From a virus (taxonomy: Duplodnaviria > Caudoviricetes), in the IMG/VR virus record IMGVR_UViG_3300029258_003280, positions 1 through 55,522 of that record: DNA of 55,522 nucleotides; one strand, given 5' to 3'. Every line of letters begins with the position of its first letter. The stretch's first letter is position 1. The notes beneath the pieces are model-generated. The model was not told the DNA's origin and searched no databases. It was given only the letters and a program-made list of their open reading frames with translations. Below are positions 3,150-46,470 of this stretch, one piece after another. A program made the translations under genes and the position numbers.

Positions 3150-4091
3150 ATGGGAACTGAGGATATCAGAATACTGCCCGCGCAAGGAGTTTTCGTACCT
3201 CGAATTACCCACGATTCGAGGGGAAACAGGATTATCCCCCTTCTCGGGGCGGGACAGTCATACGACACCGGCGTTTTTATGGTCAGGGGTTATAACAAGA
3301 TAGACATTATAGCCCGCTCCAATGTCAACGCGGACATCTTCGTTTACATGGGGCCAGACCCCGCCCAACTTGCGGCAATGACGCCCGGGGACAACCGGGA
3401 AAAAGCGAGGCTTCCGTATGCCGAGCTTGCCGTTCCGAACGGCGATTTTCCGCCCGAACAATACAGCGTTCAGGTAAGCGGAGATTTCGCGCGGGTAATA
3501 TTCAGGAACAACACCGCGGAGGCTCAGACCGTATGGGATTTTCAGGTCAACTTGAAGCCCATCGGCGAAGGTCAATGCTTCAGGGAATACATAGACGGCG
3601 CGGTAAACCCGCTCGGGATTCCCATCTATCGTTATCTGACCATGACATCCGACCACAGGCTCCGCGTCGATGTCAGCGGCGGAGGCGGGGGGGCCCTTCC
3701 GGTTTCGGGCGAGAAAGAGCAGTTGGTATGGCTGGCTAACAACTCCTCGGCGAATGCCGGGAACACCATCCCGGCCGACCCCAACACCGGGAGTTTTTCA
3801 ATTGACAGCGCCGGAACATTAACCGAGCTCGATGGCTCCATTAAGGAATTTACCATTTACGCGGAAATATTATCGTCCGGGGCCGGTAGCGGCGATATAG
3901 TAATTGAGGGAAGAAGTATTCATAACGTCGTTCCTTGGGTAGAGTTCGACAGGTTTCCTTTGGCTGCGGGGCAGAGGTTGTTTAAGACATTTAAGGCTCA
4001 GGCCAACGCCTACAGGGTTTATTTCGACAATACGGGGGGCGTGCTTGTTACCGGATTTTATGGTAACGTTTACCTGAAGCCTCAAACATAA
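3150..4091 (+). CDS. Putative vertex or spike protein (two beta domains with a Gly linker)
   Basis: 313 aa, GGAGG RBS, SGGGGG linker between beta-rich halves. Confidence 0.5.
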   Translation: MGTEDIRILPAQGVFVPRITHDSRGNRIIPLLGAGQSYDTGVFMVRGYNKIDIIARSNVNADIFVYMGPDPAQLAAMTPGDNREKARLPYAELAVPNGDFPPEQYSVQVSGDFARVIFRNNTAEAQTVWDFQVNLKPIGEGQCFREYIDGAVNPLGIPIYRYLTMTSDHRLRVDVSGGGGGALPVSGEKEQLVWLANNSSANAGNTIPADPNTGSFSIDSAGTLTELDGSIKEFTIYAEILSSGAGSGDIVIEGRSIHNVVPWVEFDRFPLAAGQRLFKTFKAQANAYRVYFDNTGGVLVTGFYGNVYLKPQT

Positions 4092-4100
4092 GGAGATGAG

Positions 4101-4439
4101 ATGCAAGAGGTTATCGGTACGGATTCAAAAAGGCTCATAGCTAATAATTTGGACATACTCGCGCTCGCGACGGTGGCCGGGCCGACCGAAAATATGAGAA
4201 ATCATGCTTTTCTCGGCGTTACCTGTCATACCAGCCAGGACGGCCAGCTCGAAATAGAATACAGGATGCCCGGCGGGATATGGCGGCAAATAGACGGCAG
4301 CCCTTTCGCGATAACGGGCGGCGTCGCATTCGACAGGGTTTACAGGATTACCCGCGATGAATACAGAGTTACCTTCACCGACACTTCCGGGGTTGCCAAT
4401 AATGTTGATTTGGGAACGCTCAGAACGAATGTAAATTAG
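4101..4439 (+). CDS. Small beta-rich virion protein
   Basis: AGGAG RBS, tight operon packing. Confidence 0.55.
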   Translation: MQEVIGTDSKRLIANNLDILALATVAGPTENMRNHAFLGVTCHTSQDGQLEIEYRMPGGIWRQIDGSPFAITGGVAFDRVYRITRDEYRVTFTDTSGVANNVDLGTLRTNVN

Positions 4440-4447
4440 GAGGCGAT

Positions 4448-4786
4448 ATGACCGCAAGGGAATGGATAGAAAGAGTTTTTGCTAAAAAAATAAAAAACGA
4501 TAAAATTATCATAGCGGCCGGGACGAAAACCGTAAAAGACGGCGCGAGGAAAATCGAAAGACAGACCGGAGCGCGTATTTACGTTGAAGTAGCCAATTTC
4601 GAACGCCTCTTCAAGGAGGAAATAGAAGCTGGAGGCACCGATGCCGAAATAGCGGCCAGAATCGCGGCCAAGAAAACGGTCAGGAGGGGTTTTAATCCCG
4701 AAACCAACAAGGTTGAAGACATGACTTTCGACACGGGATATAAAAGCCTTATCGAGGACATGGCCGACAAGGGGGCGTTTGCTTAG
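4448..4786 (+). CDS. Hypothetical protein
   Basis: GGAGG RBS, operon packing. Confidence 0.6.
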   Translation: MTAREWIERVFAKKIKNDKIIIAAGTKTVKDGARKIERQTGARIYVEVANFERLFKEEIEAGGTDAEIAARIAAKKTVRRGFNPETNKVEDMTFDTGYKSLIEDMADKGAFA

Positions 4787-7102: not shown

Positions 7103-8116
7103 ATGCCGCATAAAAGGCAGCATGACATAAATGATACTCTTGACCATGCGCCGGGAACTAACAATACCGTTCTCGGAACGGACGGCGGAGTGCTCGCCGA
7201 AGTACCGTTTTCGGCCGGGGTTTCCAATAATAACCTTGTTCAGAGGGACGGCAGCGGCGACATTGCGGTAAACCTCATCCCGGGCGGAGCATCGGCGGCG
7301 GCCAGCAAGCAATATGTTGACAATGTGGCGGTCGGGCTCAAGTGGGTTTCGCCCGCGCAGGTCTTAAAGATAAAAGACGATGGCGATGCGGGCGGAGCCC
7401 CCCCCGCAGCCAATCGCGGCGATGCTTTCGTGGTCAATAATTGGGGCGGGGGCTACAATGACGGGGATATCGTCGAGTACGACGGGACATCCTTTAATGT
7501 AATACTCTCCAATGTCGGCGGCGAGCCCCCGGATGGCACGAGAGCGGTCGTGATTGATGCGGCCGCGGCCGGGTCTTTTGCTGGTCATGAAGACGAAATA
7601 GCCACCTACGACACCGGAACAAGCTTATGGAGCTTTACTTCCCCGGTCGATGGGAATGCCATTCTTATCGTGGGTGAAAACGGAATAAATGAAAATCGAG
7701 CCTATACCTATGACGCCGCTCCCGGCGAATGGATACAATTCTCTTCGCTTGGAGCTTTCGAGCAGATGCAGTTTTATTTCGGCGTGGACGGAACCATCGC
7801 GGTAGGCGACGACCAGACGCTCTGGCTTATAGCGGGACAGGCCGTAACCGCGATAGAGGCTTATGCCGCAATTAAGACCGCCCCCACCGGCGCGGCTCTG
7901 ACCATTGAAATCGAAAAGTCGAGCAACCTCGGCGGCGCTTGGAGTACGGTAGTTTCTTCGGCGGCGCTTCAAATAGCGGCCGGTGCTCAGGAGGGCGAAG
8001 CTACCGGACTCTCGGTTTCCATCGCGAAAAACGACATACTCAGAATCAACATAGACCAAGTAGGCAGCACGGTCGCGGGCGCGGACTTGTCTGTAGTTTT
8101 GAAGGTGATAAAATGA
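7103..8116 (+). CDS. Fibre or spike protein with a DUF2793-like central region
   Basis: AASKQYVD fibre motif, G.FAGHEDEIA..W.F..P..G motif, beta-rich C-terminal domain. Confidence 0.55.
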   Translation: MPHKRQHDINDTLDHAPGTNNTVLGTDGGVLAEVPFSAGVSNNNLVQRDGSGDIAVNLIPGGASAAASKQYVDNVAVGLKWVSPAQVLKIKDDGDAGGAPPAANRGDAFVVNNWGGGYNDGDIVEYDGTSFNVILSNVGGEPPDGTRAVVIDAAAAGSFAGHEDEIATYDTGTSLWSFTSPVDGNAILIVGENGINENRAYTYDAAPGEWIQFSSLGAFEQMQFYFGVDGTIAVGDDQTLWLIAGQAVTAIEAYAAIKTAPTGAALTIEIEKSSNLGGAWSTVVSSAALQIAAGAQEGEATGLSVSIAKNDILRINIDQVGSTVAGADLSVVLKVIK

Positions 8117-24794: not shown

Positions 24795-25394
24795 CTACCA
24801 TTTCCTTACCGCATCGAACTGGGCCCAGCGCGGCATAGTCTTGCCATCGACCCTCTCTCCCTGTATTCTTACCGGGAGCCTTACATCGTCATGGTCAACT
24901 TTAACCACGACGGCCTTGGTGCCGGGCACGAAAACCCGCTTAATCCATTGGTCATCGATATGGCCTGTTGTTATGACCACATCGCCGACCCTTACCGGTT
25001 CGAGCTTGCTCATTTTTATATAGGTCTCCCCGTTCTCGACCTCTTTCGAGAGCTCGCAGTAGTTTTTCTTCGAGTGCATAACCGGGGCTTCCTTGATAAA
25101 ACCTTCTCCGTGGCATTCTGGACATCTGGCTATACCCTTGCCGCCGCATCTCCTGCATCGGGATTTTATCTGGCCCGAGCCGCCGCAATTGACACAGGTT
25201 TTTTTAGCTTCCTCTTCGTTGCTGCATATGCTGCATTGTCTCATCCGGAAACCCTTGCCATCGCAGAAGTCGCAATCCTCATTCTTGGGCGAAACACCTT
25301 TCCCCTTACAGTTATTACATGTCGTCTTGTCGAAACAGGCTACAACCCTGACCATCCAATCTCCATACCAGCAAGCAGTATTGGGCTCAATCAT
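24795..25394 (-). CDS. DnaJ-type zinc-finger repeat protein
   Basis: Five CxxCxGxG repeats, then a small beta (SH3-like) domain. Confidence 0.7.
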   Translation of the reverse strand: MIEPNTACWYGDWMVRVVACFDKTTCNNCKGKGVSPKNEDCDFCDGKGFRMRQCSICSNEEEAKKTCVNCGGSGQIKSRCRRCGGKGIARCPECHGEGFIKEAPVMHSKKNYCELSKEVENGETYIKMSKLEPVRVGDVVITTGHIDDQWIKRVFVPGTKAVVVKVDHDDVRLPVRIQGERVDGKTMPRWAQFDAVRKW

Positions 25395-25672
25395 TCTTTC
25401 TCCTCTTTCGTCCCTATCTTTTCAAAAGCCATGATACAATAGCCTTCCGGCAAGCCGAAAACAGGCGGAGCATCCTTATAGATATAAGTCACTTTTACAT
25501 ATAAAGTCCTGCCGGTGAAGCGGCCGCCCCGGCGCTGGGGGATGAATTCGCGCAGCCGAAGCGTGTCTCCCACCCGAAAACCCCTGTCATCCTTGCGATA
25601 TTCGAAGGGTTTTTTACCTTCGAGCATTTCGCCGAAGGAATGGGGCCATGTTTTCAGAGTATGAACTTTCAT
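25391..25672 (-). CDS. DUF3850 / ASCH-like protein
   Basis: H.LK.WP..F.....G.K.FE.R.DDR.F.VGD.L.L.E signature. Confidence 0.85.
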   Translation of the reverse strand: MKVHTLKTWPHSFGEMLEGKKPFEYRKDDRGFRVGDTLRLREFIPQRRGGRFTGRTLYVKVTYIYKDAPPVFGLPEGYCIMAFEKIGTKEEKE

Positions 25673-25911
25673 TTATCACCTTCATACCACTCTTCTTTTA
25701 CTGTTACTTTTTGCAGGCCGGTAATCCTGTCTATCCCTATATTAAAGTTTCTATTACCGGCGAGACAATCCCCTTCGGGAATACCACCGGCCAGATTTAC
25801 GACATACGGGCGTCCGCATATTTCTATTCTTTCCGCCCCTAATATGTCCTTAAACCTGACAAAGACGGCGTTGGCCCCCTCGATAAACTTCTCAATTTCA
25901 AACTTGGTCAT
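25669..25911 (-). CDS. Hypothetical protein
   Basis: GGAGG RBS; the start lies inside the 50-bp direct repeat. Confidence 0.6.
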   Translation of the reverse strand: MTKFEIEKFIEGANAVFVRFKDILGAERIEICGRPYVVNLAGGIPEGDCLAGNRNFNIGIDRITGLQKVTVKEEWYEGDK

Positions 25912-25945
25912 AATACCTCCGCAGTACAGTACACTACTAAACCTT
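25896..25945. repeat. 50-bp direct repeat, copy 1
   Basis: Matches 26370-26419 with one mismatch. Confidence 0.9.
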
Positions 25946-26375
25946 AAACTATAATATAATTACCCATATATGTTCTTACACGGGTTGCTTTTTTTCGTGT
26001 TTTTGGTAGATGTAATTCATCTAATATTTTTTGGATAAGAGACCTCCGAGTAATATATTTGTCACAACATTTTTTACATAATTTTTTCAGAACACGAACA
26101 TGCCGAGAATTTTCAAGAAACCGGGTTTTTGCGCCGCACCATTTACATTTTACTACTCCTGTATAGTAAACAGGTGGTGAACATTCAATATACCCATCTC
26201 CTTCTCTATCTCCAAAAATTTTATTTCTTTCAAAGCCTAATATAAATGCACAATTTACACATAAAGGCTCATTGTTGTCATCGTATGCTGTCTCATCGCT
26301 ATTTATATATGTTCCGCAGTTATGGCAAATTTTATCCCAAGTTTCTTCCCTCATTTTTAAGTTTCCTTGTTTCAA
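25944..26375 (-). CDS. AT-rich Cys-rich (zinc-binding) protein between direct repeats
   Basis: Four CxxC pairs; visibly AT-rich; the likely start is the internal ATG (MREETWDK). Confidence 0.6.
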   Translation of the reverse strand: MKQGNLKMREETWDKICHNCGTYINSDETAYDDNNEPLCVNCAFILGFERNKIFGDREGDGYIECSPPVYYTGVVKCKWCGAKTRFLENSRHVRVLKKLCKKCCDKYITRRSLIQKILDELHLPKTRKKATRVRTYMGNYIIV

Positions 26376-26419
26376 ACTTGGTCATAATACCCCCGCAGTA
26401 CAGTACACTACTAAACCTT
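26370..26419. repeat. 50-bp direct repeat, copy 2
   Basis: Matches 25896-25945 and overlaps the distal end of the pentamer array. Confidence 0.9.
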
Positions 26420-26829
26420 GCCTTGACCTCACAGTGCGACACTAAACACTACCCTTACTTTACAACACCGCGCCTTACCTTACCCTTACGACACCTTACC
26501 AGACTAAACAGGACAGTCACAGTACTTTACAACACAGCACTAAACATTACCCTTACAAAACGCCACAAGACTAAACTTTACCATCACAGCACTATACGCC
26601 ACCATACACTACAACACGGTACCGTCACATTACCGGGCAAGACAACACAACACCGTCACAGTAAAAGACGCTACGCCACAACACATTATCCTACTAAACA
26701 TGACCTCAGCCATACAACATTCCACTTGACCAATACGGAACCAGACTTCACTTGACTTTACCTCTACATCGCTCTACGCTACTTTACCGGCACGGTACAG
26801 TACGCTATGTGACAAAACGGAACCGCCAC
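26395..26829 (-). ncRNA. Periodic non-coding array (GT-NNN)n with hexamer punctuation; candidate guide-RNA array
   Basis: Manual parse: 71 five-nt and 13 six-nt units; 74 of 85 anchors are GT and 7 are GC on the minus strand. Lies directly downstream of the Cas7-like gene. The repeat structure is seen directly; RNA status is inferred. Confidence 0.75.
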
Positions 26830-26833
26830 CTAA

Positions 26834-26845
26834 TTGTCAAAGAGC
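26834..26845 (-). promoter_or_regulatory. boxA-like antitermination element in front of the array
   Basis: Minus strand reads GCTCTTTGACAA, close to the rrn boxA TGCTCTTTAACA. Confidence 0.65.
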
Positions 26846-26846
26846 T

Positions 26847-26875
26847 TGTAACGGGGCGATGGCCGCCCCGCTACA
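26847..26875 (-). other. Stem-loop between the Cas7-like gene and the array
   Basis: TGTAACGGGGCG and CGCCCCGCTACA form a 12-bp stem with one G-U pair in the minus-strand RNA. Confidence 0.65.
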
Positions 26876-26889
26876 GGTCGTCATGAGCG

Positions 26890-27543
26890 CTATTCTACAA
26901 AGACATACTTGAAGCGGCCGTAATCCGCGTTTCTCCATTGGCCTATGCCTTTGAATTCGCCGTAATCGAGCCATTCCTCGATGCAGTCGAGCAAGTCCGG
27001 CGCGAGCGTGACAACTTCTATCCGGCACGTAGTCCCGGCCGGTATCATCTCGCTCCGGGCGATAGAAATCCGCTCTCCCTGCGGAGTCTGGGCCCTGAGC
27101 GGCCGCTCTAACATGGTCGGCTTGGTGCCCTCGGGGAGAGTGAGAATAATCTTCCGGGGATAGACGAAGACATGCCGGTTAATGCGCTTGCTGAAATTTT
27201 TCTTGACCTTCTCGGAGGCCGTCCCTTTTATCGGATAAAGCGCCTGACAGGCCGCCTTGAAGAAGCCCTTGAACATGTAGTTATAGATGAATATCTTGCC
27301 GTCGTCATCCCGAAGAAAGAATGTGCTCCTCTTGTCGGCCTCATCCTGAAAGTCCTTGAGCGTCTCCTTGAGCGTTTTTAAATGCTCAACCTCGACCTCG
27401 GCCGGGATTTCTTCCCCCTTCTTTCTGGCCGCCTCGATAATATGCTTGATAAGTATGTCCACATCGCCCGGATTCGTCCCCAAAACCGGCTCGATAAAAG
27501 TCACATCCGCCACCAACTTAGTCAAAAGCCCTTTCAATGCCAT
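26890..27543 (-). CDS. Stand-alone Cas7/RAMP-like RNA-binding protein
   Basis: N-terminal strand VTFIEPVLGT, a helix with FKGFFKAAC, SEMIPAGT..RIEV, and a C-terminal Gly-rich loop GIGQWRNADYGRF typical of RAMPs; AAGGAG RBS. Confidence 0.75.
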   Translation of the reverse strand: MALKGLLTKLVADVTFIEPVLGTNPGDVDILIKHIIEAARKKGEEIPAEVEVEHLKTLKETLKDFQDEADKRSTFFLRDDDGKIFIYNYMFKGFFKAACQALYPIKGTASEKVKKNFSKRINRHVFVYPRKIILTLPEGTKPTMLERPLRAQTPQGERISIARSEMIPAGTTCRIEVVTLAPDLLDCIEEWLDYGEFKGIGQWRNADYGRFKYVFVE

Positions 27544-45171: not shown

Positions 45172-45183
45172 TTGTCAAAGAAC
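45172..45183 (-). promoter_or_regulatory. boxA-like element
   Basis: Minus strand GTTCTTTGACAA. Confidence 0.55.
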
Positions 45184-46407: not shown

Positions 46408-46470
46408 TTGTCAAAGAGCCACTTCACATCGTGTGTACCAAAGTGTACCATAAGGCCACATTCAAATCAA
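46408..46470 (-). promoter_or_regulatory. Leftward early promoter followed by a boxA-like element
   Basis: Minus strand TTGATT(46470-46465), 17-nt spacer, TACACT(46447-46442) with an extended TG and an upstream T tract; GCTCTTTGACAA at 46419-46408. Confidence 0.65.

What the first reader, a model, noticed from the sequence alone, without database searches (positions are those of the whole stretch)
26395..27543. Stand-alone Cas7/RAMP-like gene coupled to a 5-nt-periodic non-coding array: candidate non-CRISPR RNA-guided system
Seen: a 217-aa ORF with a RAMP-type C-terminal Gly loop (GIGQWRNADYGRF) is followed on the same strand by a 12-bp hairpin, a boxA-like 12-mer and a 435-bp array. In the array a fixed GT (sometimes GC) recurs every 5 nt while the other three bases vary. 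There are no other cas genes and no CRISPR repeat-spacer array. Established: Cas7-family RAMPs polymerise along guide RNA with a fixed nucleotide step. Inference: each subunit grips the constant dinucleotide while the variable bases read a target through a gapped code, which would give a one-protein programmable repressor against rival mobile elements or host defences. I recall recent reports of viral RAMP plus pentamer-repeat RNA loci (VIPR, GGY/NN units); that recollection is unverified, and the GY-NNN grammar here would be a different variant.
Basis: partly seen in the sequence, partly recalled or inferred. Interest (0 to 1): 0.95.

Follow-up and report, generated by a model that had tools for sequence, protein, structure and literature searches.

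The report
Phage VIPR locus with GT-NNN guides
This is a real copy of the VIPR system described in 2026 preprints, a lone Cas7-like protein gene followed by about 13 short five-base-step guide RNAs, so it is a tidy new member of a known kind whose targets and exact reading rule are still unknown.

Summary
A 217-aa ORF (26890-27543, minus strand) is followed on the same strand by a 12-bp hairpin, a boxA-like 12-mer and a ~435-nt tract with strong 5-nt periodicity.

- **Protein:** it has a confident RAMP/Cas7 fold. Its profile aligns end to end with the SUSP1 Vipr clade.
- **Conservation:** all 80 viral relatives fetched carry a 5-nt-periodic tract next to the gene, almost always on the gene's strand.
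- **Identity:** this is a VIPR system (bioRxiv 10.64898/2026.04.26.720920). That paper's Methods already list YNNNG repeats, and a legend describes 'staggered' arrays.
- **Array anatomy:** the tract is not in one register. It is 13 abutting blocks of (G-Y-N-N-N)n plus one extra G, mostly 26-36 nt.
- **Protein-RNA match:** the two published contacts of the first G (H17, D177) are T23 and Q202 here. The contacts of the second G and the pyrimidine (W, R) are kept. This fits the grammar.
- **Accessory gene:** no conserved vap gene was found.
- **Targets:** none were found and the reading rule is unresolved.

This scan has noted VIPR loci many times on other DNA. Novelty: new member of a known kind.

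The parts
26890..27543 (-). vipr gene: 217-aa stand-alone RAMP (RRM core, helical bundle 28-62, thumb hairpin ~143-167, G-loop GIGQWRNADYGRF 199-211)
   Evidence: ORF. AF2 model pLDDT 91.9. Foldseek best hit type VII Cas7, E 3.2e-7. VIA-align best hit Csm3, Z 12.4. hhalign to the SUSP1 Vipr clade: E 4.5e-5 over 180 columns.
26847..26875 (-). 12-bp hairpin with 5-nt loop just after the stop codon, no U-tract
   Evidence: Not flagged as an intrinsic terminator. Absent from the closest relative L205, where the array starts at the stop codon.
26834..26845 (-). boxA-like 12-mer GCTCTTTGACAA, also containing a TTGACA hexamer
   Evidence: two identical copies on the minus strand (26845, 46419). On the gene's strand none of the 80 relatives has a copy between gene and array.
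26392..26823 (-). vrRNA array: 13 abutting guide blocks of (G-Y-N-N-N)n + G
26788..26823 (-). block 1, 36 nt, 7 units
26762..26787 (-). block 2, 26 nt, 5 units
26731..26761 (-). block 3, 31 nt, 6 units
26705..26730 (-). block 4, 26 nt, 5 units
26654..26704 (-). block 5, 51 nt, 10 units (two degenerate units; may be two fused blocks)
26623..26653 (-). block 6, 31 nt, 6 units
26582..26622 (-). block 7, 41 nt, 8 units
26551..26581 (-). block 8, 31 nt, 6 units
26516..26550 (-). block 9, 35 nt, 7 units
   Evidence: Blocks 9-11 (98 nt in all) are missing from one metagenome contig.
26484..26515 (-). block 10, 32 nt, 6 units
26453..26483 (-). block 11, 31 nt, 6 units
26422..26452 (-). block 12, 31 nt, 6 units
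26392..26421 (-). block 13 (last), 6 units, running into the ribosome-binding site of the next gene
26370..26419 (.). 50-nt direct repeat, copy A (last guide block + RBS + first codons of the downstream gene)
   Evidence: 98% identical to copy B
25896..25945 (.). 50-nt direct repeat, copy B
25944..26375 (-). 143-aa Cys-rich ORF inserted between the array and the 80-aa gene. Not part of the conserved module.
   Evidence: Flanked by the 50-nt repeats. Absent from the syntenic relative L205. No family match.

Best explanation
The locus is a VIPR system of an uncultured sediment/seawater phage.

Proposed mechanism:
- The 217-aa protein is a Vipr-family RAMP.
- The downstream tract is transcribed with, or just after, the gene. 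It yields about 13 short guide RNAs (vrRNAs).
- By analogy with the published SUSP1 system, one protomer binds each 5-nt unit. It buries the constant G-Y pair and presents the variable bases, so that a short helical filament (5-10 protomers per block) pairs with double-stranded DNA through a gapped code and blocks transcription of a rival mobile element.
- The extra G after each block shifts the register by one. A filament therefore cannot run on into the next block, and each block is a separate guide.
- In this clade the pocket for the first G of the canonical GGY is lost (H17 to T23, D177 to Q202). The contacts for the second G and the pyrimidine (W203, R204) are kept. This explains the G-Y-only grammar.

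Shown here: the fold, the profile link to SUSP1 Vipr, the array grammar and block structure, their conservation across relatives, and hypervariability of the array between syntenic relatives.

Inferred: transcription, processing at block borders, filament assembly, DNA targeting and silencing. Whether two or three variable bases per unit are read is open.
For: Fold:
- AF2 with a 60-sequence alignment gave pLDDT 91.9.
- Foldseek against PDB gave 139 hits at E<=1e-3. The listed best hits are Cas7/Csm3-type subunits of type VII and type III effector complexes, best E 3.2e-7.
- VIA-align ranks 1-31 are all CRISPR RAMPs. The best is Csm3 9g9a_D: Z 12.4, rmsd 3.4, 156 residues aligned.

Family link:
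- I located the SUSP1 vipr gene between GGY-NN arrays.
- The profile of this clade (A1) against the SUSP1 clade (A2) gave E 4.5e-5, probability 68.9%, 180 columns, colinear from residue 7 to 217.
- The G-loops read G-I-G-Q-W-R here and G-V-G-D-W-R in SUSP1.
- The cryo-EM preprint assigns G1 to H17 and D177, G2 to W178 and R138, and Y3 to R179. Here T23, Q202, W203 and R204 align to H17, D177, W178 and R179.

Conserved association:
- The family is large: 2157 proteins at E<=1e-3.
- All 80 viral loci fetched have a 5-nt-periodic tract within about 600 nt of the gene.
- 87 of 91 arrays lie on the gene's strand.
- The +1 register shift accounts for 1157 of 1395 boundaries. Block lengths peak at 26, 31 and 36 nt.
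- Blocks have a conserved last unit followed by G.

Grammar tracks the protein:
- 75 of 80 loci have the G-x-G-Q-W-R loop. The arrays beside them have G at 8-35% in the position before G-Y; L065, covered in the next point, is the exception.
- L065 also carries a second, SUSP1-like gene with G-I-G-E-W-R. Two of its three arrays (2850, 3740) have G at 67-73% in that position.

Hypervariability: in the syntenic relative L205 (78% aa identity, flanks 70-84% nt identity) the array keeps the grammar but shares no BLASTN-alignable sequence.

Modularity: one metagenome contig lacks exactly blocks 9-11, 98 nt.
Against: - No RNA data exist for this DNA, so transcription, processing and binding are untested.
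- The hhalign probability to the SUSP1 clade is only 68.9%. With SUSP1 alone as template, only the G-loop aligned. A profile search of the SUSP1 genome with A1 found nothing.
- No target was found under any of the rules tried: in the window, in 52 whole relative phage genomes, or in three collection scans.
- No accessory (vap) gene is conserved: 0 of 12 window neighbours have a homolog near vipr in the 80 relatives.
- The canonical 3' tail/pseudoknot is absent.
- I could not see the paper's figures or supplements, so the assignment to its 'staggered' / YNNNG class rests on wording alone.
Confidence: 0.88

Rival explanations
1. Canonical reading. The unit is N-G-Y/N-N. Only the two bases after the pyrimidine pair with the target, with one skipped target base per unit as in SUSP1. 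The base before G is an unread, unconstrained filler.
For: - It is the only rule shown experimentally.
- The gLM preprint models non-canonical arrays as three scaffold plus two variable positions, including W-G-T/NN.
- The TA deficit is much stronger between the first two variable positions (log2 O/E -0.95) than between the second and third (-0.22).
- The third variable position varies somewhat more between near-identical blocks: 73 variable columns against 51 and 52, of 627 each.
Against: - In middle units the three positions vary alike: 37, 40 and 43 variable columns.
- There was no enrichment of matches under this rule in 2.1 Mb of relative phage genomes. With 5-7 units the rule gives only 10-14 read bases, so the test is weak.
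Confidence: 0.45
2. Three-base reading. With the G1 pocket lost, the base before G joins the two variable bases. Each protomer then reads three bases, most simply with one skipped target base (5 RNA : 4 DNA).
For: - Both published G1 contacts are replaced, while the G2/Y3 contacts are kept.
- All three positions carry about zero information in block logos.
- Dinucleotide biases are flat across the G-Y gap, which argues against contiguous reading without a skip.
- One exact 18-of-18 hit was found under this rule: a guide of L003 on another phage, G002. About 0.1 such hits are expected by chance.
Against: - The single hit is compatible with chance. Its homologous site in G001 differs at read positions, not skip positions.
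- There was no enrichment at up to 1 mismatch: 6 hits against 3-13 in controls.
- The between-unit correlations predicted for a period-4 target on coding DNA were not seen.
- Two collection scans with such patterns found nothing.
Confidence: 0.3
3. The tract acts as DNA, not RNA. It would be a periodic protein-binding or structural element (iterons, bent DNA, an origin) that merely sits beside the gene.
For: No transcript data for this locus. The periodicity as such is a DNA property.
Against: - Strand-specific G-Y grammar on the gene's strand in 87 of 91 arrays.
- The partner has an RNA-binding RAMP fold.
- Published vrRNAs of the same design are transcribed and co-purify with Vipr.
- A 5-nt period does not match the DNA helical repeat.
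Confidence: 0.03
4. The tract is one long scaffold RNA covered by a single filament or by linked filaments. The +1 slips would be helical punctuation rather than borders of separately processed guides.
For: - No ribozyme or known processing element lies in or beside the array: Rfam gave 0 hits.
- The modal block of 6 units equals the six-subunit turn reported for the binary filament.
Against: - The conserved last unit plus G at each border looks like a processing or termination signal.
- The discovery paper's legend speaks of individually processed vrRNAs in staggered arrays.
- A functional 6-unit, 18-bp footprint is published.
Confidence: 0.15

Closest known systems
VIPR with alternative YNNNG repeats and 'staggered' vrRNA arrays (bioRxiv 10.64898/2026.04.26.720920, Methods 'VIPR type classification' and legend of fig. 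S18)
   Same: A lone Vipr-type RAMP. Five-base units with only G and a pyrimidine fixed. Guides abut one another without tails, with borders offset by one base.
   Different: I could read only the wording, not the figure or data S4, so the type number (I-VII) is unassigned. This phage uses G-T (92%), whereas the gut relatives use mostly G-C.
Type II VIPR of Escherichia phage SUSP1 and the Pseudomonas fulva prophage
   Same: - RAMP with RRM core, helical bundle, thumb and a G-x-G-x-W-R G-loop.
- One pentamer per protomer expected.
- Phage-borne, with no cas genes or CRISPR array.
   Different: - G-Y/NNN instead of GGY/NN.
- H17 and D177 are replaced by T23 and Q202.
- Guides of 5-10 units with no 3' tail or pseudoknot, against about 100-nt vrRNAs with 9-16 repeats and a tail.
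- No vap1 homolog.
- Sequence similarity is detectable only profile to profile.
Non-canonical VIPR arrays found with a genomic language model (bioRxiv 10.64898/2026.10.21.760802: 21 clusters, motifs such as W-G-T/NN and T-G-H/NN)
   Same: Period-5 arrays with a partly degenerate scaffold beside a Vipr-like fold.
   Different: That paper fits three scaffold plus two variable positions and reports about 10 repeats. It does not mention 5n+1 blocks in the passages I read. The base before G here is close to unbiased: A .24, C .19, G .19, T .37.
Cas7-family backbone subunits of CRISPR effector complexes (Csm3, Cmr4, type VII Cas7)
   Same: Fold (Z 12.4 to Csm3) and a G-loop that aligns by sequence to type VII Cas7 (profile E 0.0014).
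   Different: No CRISPR repeats, no Cas10/Cas5/Cas6/Cas11 partners seen, a 5-nt rather than 6-nt step, and a smaller protein with a single RRM.

Membership tests
VIPR system | Vipr protein: stand-alone RAMP with RRM core, G-loop and thumb | tested here: met
   AF2 pLDDT 91.9. Foldseek best hits are CRISPR Cas7-type subunits, best E 3.2e-7. VIA-align ranks 1-31 are all RAMPs, best Z 12.4. The thumb hairpin (~143-167) and G-loop (199-211) are visible in the secondary structure.
VIPR system | Homology to a published Vipr (SUSP1) | tested here: met
   Profile-profile E 4.5e-5, probability 68.9%, 180 colinear columns. The link is weak: single-template hhalign aligned only the G-loop, and the profile found nothing in the SUSP1 genome.
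VIPR system | Membership of the paper's own PSI-BLAST set and its type I-VII tree | not testable with these tools
   Supplementary tables and data are closed, and the seed X1U2U4 was not available.
VIPR system | Tandem pentamer repeats with fixed scaffold bases alternating with hypervariable bases, next to vipr | tested here: met
   Window. Relatives: 80 of 80. 87 of 91 arrays on the gene's strand. Array hypervariable against syntenic L205.
VIPR system | Canonical GGY/NN unit | tested here: not met
   G is at 19% in the position before G-Y. The paper allows 'a related consensus', including YNNNG.
VIPR system | Accessory vap gene (stated as typical, not universal) | tested here: not met
   0 of 12 neighbouring window ORFs have a homolog within 4 kb of vipr in the 80 relatives. 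No family hits for the flanking ORFs. A 77-aa HTH protein lies two genes upstream.
VIPR system | No CRISPR array, viral context | tested here: met
   Rfam gave 0 hits and TRF shows no repeat-spacer array. The record is held as a virus record. It has a primase/polymerase-type gene. cas genes were not scanned ORF by ORF.
VIPR system | vrRNAs expressed and bound by Vipr | not testable with these tools
   No RNA run holds this DNA.
VIPR system | Guides match DNA of rival elements under a gapped rule | tested here: inconclusive
   No enrichment under any rule tried. Three collection scans were empty.
Type II VIPR (SUSP1 type) | About 100-nt vrRNAs with a conserved structured 3' tail | tested here: not met
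   Blocks abut with a single extra G and no tail. SUSP1 arrays with tails were seen for comparison.
CRISPR-Cas class 1 effector | Repeat-spacer array and partner cas genes | tested here: not met
   PADLOC and NCBIfam gave no cas match for the protein or the flanking ORFs scanned.

The most novel reading that the evidence does not exclude
In this Q-loop clade, loss of the first-G pocket has turned a scaffold base into a third reading base. Each protomer would then read three bases (a 5:4 RNA:DNA code, distinct from the published 5:3 code). The array would be a train of one-turn mini-filaments, each set off by a single extra G. That would be a second, denser programmable code within VIPR. It would be orthogonal to the canonical one, as the co-residence of both types in one phage (L065) hints.
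Probability: 0.3. Interest if true: 0.65.

Novelty: new member of a known kind. Interest (0 to 1): 0.3.

Why it matters
VIPR is a months-old class of RNA-guided DNA binders. Its diversity outside type II is described in print mostly in supplements.

This locus is a clean, compact example of the G-Y/NNN 'staggered' form: one 217-aa protein and 13 guides in 1.15 kb.

It also offers a residue-level explanation for the altered grammar. Both published G1 contacts are replaced and the G2/Y3 contacts are kept. Swapping two residues would test this directly.

If the third variable base is read, the clade would supply a different programmable code. Otherwise it is an ordinary further member of the class.

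Tried and rejected
**Family libraries.** Pfam, PHROGs, PADLOC and NCBIfam gave no family for the protein. A single-sequence AF2 run was useless, pLDDT 39.

**boxA as a conserved part of the module: rejected.** On the gene's strand none of the 80 relatives has the motif between gene and array. The closest relative, L205, has neither the spacer nor the hairpin.

**Promoter or terminator for the array.** The consensus scan found none at the junction.

**Target searches, all without signal:**
- Exact 5-unit matches in 0.7 Mb of flanks, three-base rules with 0, 1 or 3 skips.
- Two-base rules in the same flanks.
- Window guides against the window itself.
- All 889 unique blocks against 52 whole relative genomes plus the window, 2.1 Mb. 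Only period-5 'hits' to unmasked arrays stood out.
- L205 guides against the window.
- Two viral-contig scans and one metagenome-contig scan with one guide each: 0 matches.

**Two isolated near-hits, compatible with chance.** One was 18 of 18 under three-plus-one skip. The other was 20 of 21 under contiguous reading.

**Statistical inference of the rule.** Triplet O/E, dinucleotide O/E and within-block correlations were suggestive at most. They are confounded by adjacent duplicated units.

**Expression.** No RNA holder was listed for this DNA.

**Other gaps.** Supplements of all four preprints were not seen and may already hold the type assignment and the reading rule for this clade.
Full report
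**What is in the sequence**

The ORF lies on the minus strand at 26890-27543. It is 217 aa and ends in GIGQWRNADYGRFKYVFVE. On the same strand it is followed by three features:
- a 12-bp hairpin at about 26847-26875;
- the 12-mer GCTCTTTGACAA at 26834-26845;
- a tract running to about 26392.

Across 26395-26830, same-base identity at lag 5 is 0.483, against 0.16-0.28 at neighbouring lags. None of 2000 shuffles reached it (z 9.4). It is the most periodic of 551 tiles in the window.

The register is not constant. Phase tracking splits the tract into 13 blocks of 36, 26, 31, 26, 51, 31, 41, 31, 35, 32, 31, 31 and about 30 nt. Nearly all blocks are a run of G-Y-N-N-N units plus one extra G, so the next block starts one base out of step. 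Over 83 units, G is 95% and T 92% (C 8%). The three other positions are variable.

Rfam finds nothing in the window at gathering score. There is no repeat-spacer array.

**The protein**

Pfam, PHROGs, PADLOC and NCBIfam give no family. The protein nonetheless belongs to a large family: 2157 proteins at E<=1e-3, none with a Pfam domain among the 120 listed.

With a 60-sequence alignment, AlphaFold2 gives pLDDT 91.9. The structure searches agree:
- Foldseek against PDB returns 139 matches at E<=1e-3. The listed best hits are Cas7/Csm3-type subunits of type VII and type III effector complexes, best E 3.2e-7.
- VIA-align against 48,161 chains puts CRISPR RAMPs at ranks 1-31. The top is Csm3 9g9a_D (Z 12.4, rmsd 3.4, 156 residues aligned).
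- By sequence, the family profile touches the type VII Cas7 and Csm4 G-loops at E about 0.0015.

**It is a VIPR system**

bioRxiv 10.64898/2026.04.26.720920 describes phage-borne Vipr RAMPs with vrRNAs of alternating GGY/NN units, which silence DNA through a gapped code. I read the outline, the Results, Methods sections 18 and 20, and legend passages.
- Its Methods state that some loci have 'NNNGG, YNNNG, and NNNNG repeats'.
- A legend describes 'staggered' arrays in which the end of one processed vrRNA marks the start of the next.
- G-Y-N-N-N is YNNNG read from another start.

A later preprint, 10.64898/2026.10.21.760802 (passages only), reports 21 clusters with non-canonical motifs. A third, 10.64898/2026.10.15.759431 (passages only), shows a working six-unit, 18-bp footprint.

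To test membership directly I located the SUSP1 vipr gene (195 aa) between its GGY-NN arrays. I then built a 42-sequence alignment of its clade and compared profiles. The result was E 4.5e-5, probability 68.9%, with 180 columns colinear over the whole length. This link is modest. With SUSP1 alone only the G-loop aligned, and the profile found nothing in the SUSP1 genome.

**Conservation of the module**

- All 80 IMG/VR relatives fetched (of 560 confirmed) have a 5-nt-periodic tract within about 600 nt of the gene. In most it abuts the gene.
- Of 91 arrays of 250 nt or more, 87 read G-Y on the gene's strand: 57 downstream and 30 upstream.
- The +1 slip makes up 1157 of 1395 boundaries. Block lengths peak at 26 (235), 31 (334) and 36 (233) nt.
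- The last unit of a block is conserved (G-C-A-A-N, then G). The window's blocks end similarly (G-T-R-A-N, then G).
- None of 12 neighbouring window ORFs has a homolog near vipr in these relatives. The conserved module is therefore the gene plus the array, with no vap gene.
- In L205, the closest relative (Omnitrophota MAG contig, 78% aa identity), the flanking genes align at 70-84% nt identity. The ~520-nt G-T array shares no BLASTN-alignable sequence with the window's, yet keeps the same grammar and 5n+1 blocks.

**Why G-Y and not G-G-Y**

The cryo-EM preprint 10.64898/2026.04.26.720927 (outline and Results part 1) assigns contacts as follows:
- the first G to H17 and D177;
- the second G to W178 and R138;
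- the pyrimidine to R179, among others.

In the profile alignment these positions are T23, Q202, W203 and R204 here. T23 and Q202 are at least 90% conserved in the clade. So both G1 contacts are replaced and the aligned G2/Y3 contacts are kept, which matches the grammar.

A natural control supports this. 75 of 80 loci have the Q loop, and the arrays beside them have G at 8-35% in the position before G-Y. L065, which also has the Q-loop gene, is the exception: it carries a second, SUSP1-like gene (E 3e-10 to SUSP1 Vipr) with an E at that loop position, and two of its three arrays (2850, 3740) have G at 67-73% there. This residue-level reading is my inference. I did not find it in the text I read.

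**How it most likely works**

By analogy with SUSP1, one protomer binds each unit. It hides G-Y and presents the variable bases, so that a filament of 5-10 protomers binds matching DNA and blocks transcription. The extra G breaks the register, so each block should be its own guide. The modal six units equal one turn of the published binary filament.

None of these steps is shown for this locus. No RNA run holds it.

**The reading rule is open**

All target searches were negative:
- window guides against the window;
- all guides against 0.7 Mb of flanks;
- all guides against 2.1 Mb of whole relative genomes;
- L205 guides against the window;
- three collection scans.

Two isolated near-hits are compatible with chance.

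Indirect statistics:
- Dinucleotide biases are flat across the G-Y gap, which speaks against contiguous reading.
- The TA deficit is stronger between the first two variable bases.
- Middle units vary alike at all three positions.
- Correlations expected for a period-4 target were not seen. That test is confounded by duplicated neighbouring units.

I put two-base canonical reading at about 0.45 and three-base reading at about 0.3.

**Comparison and verdict**

The locus meets the defining features of VIPR: a stand-alone RAMP, a pentamer guide array on the same strand, a viral setting and no CRISPR array. It differs from the studied type II systems in four ways:
- G-Y/NNN units;
- short tail-less abutting guides;
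- no vap gene;
- a changed G1 pocket.

All but the last are already mentioned in print, at least in words. This scan has also noted VIPR loci many times on other DNA: 687 notes. They include G-Y/NNN staggered arrays whose rule was likewise left open.

It is a real, well-formed new member of a known kind. Interest is moderate to low unless the three-base code proves true.

Noticed in passing
window 25896-25945 and 26370-26419; ORF 25944-26375 (-): A 50-nt direct repeat (98% identical) brackets a 143-aa Cys-rich ORF. The repeat comprises the last guide block, the ribosome-binding site and the first five codons of the 80-aa gene. The syntenic relative L205 goes straight from the array to the 80-aa gene's ortholog. 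The ORF therefore looks like an insertion that duplicated its target.
   Followed up: partly
window 26834-26845 (-) and 46408-46419 (-): The 12-mer GCTCTTTGACAA occurs twice on the minus strand, where about 0.007 copies are expected by chance. A 2-mismatch copy lies at 45183. The motif is not conserved beside the arrays of relatives.
   Followed up: partly
window 26450-26547: One low-depth metagenome contig (run X5, depth 4.4) joins 26449 to 26548. It skips 98 nt, which is exactly blocks 9-11, between two copies of a 9-nt repeat. It then diverges into a different periodic sequence beyond 26587, so strains seem to differ by whole blocks.
   Followed up: no
window 26456-26597: A 67-nt unit (two blocks) is present in 2.1 tandem copies at 74-75% identity. 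This suggests the array grows by duplication of blocks that then diverge. Adjacent identical units inside blocks point the same way.
   Followed up: no
L065 (IMG/VR locus) 2220-2888 and 4010-4657: One phage carries two different vipr genes. One is SUSP1-like with an E in the G-loop, next to canonical GGY-NN arrays. The other is of the window's Q-loop clade. This hints that the two grammars are orthogonal.
   Followed up: partly
window 26416-26699 (-): The unit G-T-T-T-A followed by G-T recurs six times, usually as the second unit of a block. It is also frequent in the L205 array. I have no explanation: it could be a shared target word or a processing cue.
   Followed up: no
window 25391-25672 (-): Two genes downstream of the array lies a 93-aa protein that matches PHROG 986, annotated 'RNA-binding protein' (E 6e-28). 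No link to the array was tested.
   Followed up: no
L207 (Aquificae Conch Spring virus) 3705-4130; L208 (Hydrogenobaculum phage 1) 3800-4420: Distant homologs of the protein (26% identity) in two thermophile viruses are also followed by 5-nt-periodic tracts. The tract in L207 is purine-rich.
   Followed up: no
G002 (L087) 7716-7738: A six-unit guide shared by L003, L019 and L022 matches this site of another phage at 18 of 18 read bases, under a three-read-plus-one-skip rule. About 0.1 such hits are expected by chance. The homologous site in G001 matches 16 of 18.
   Followed up: partly
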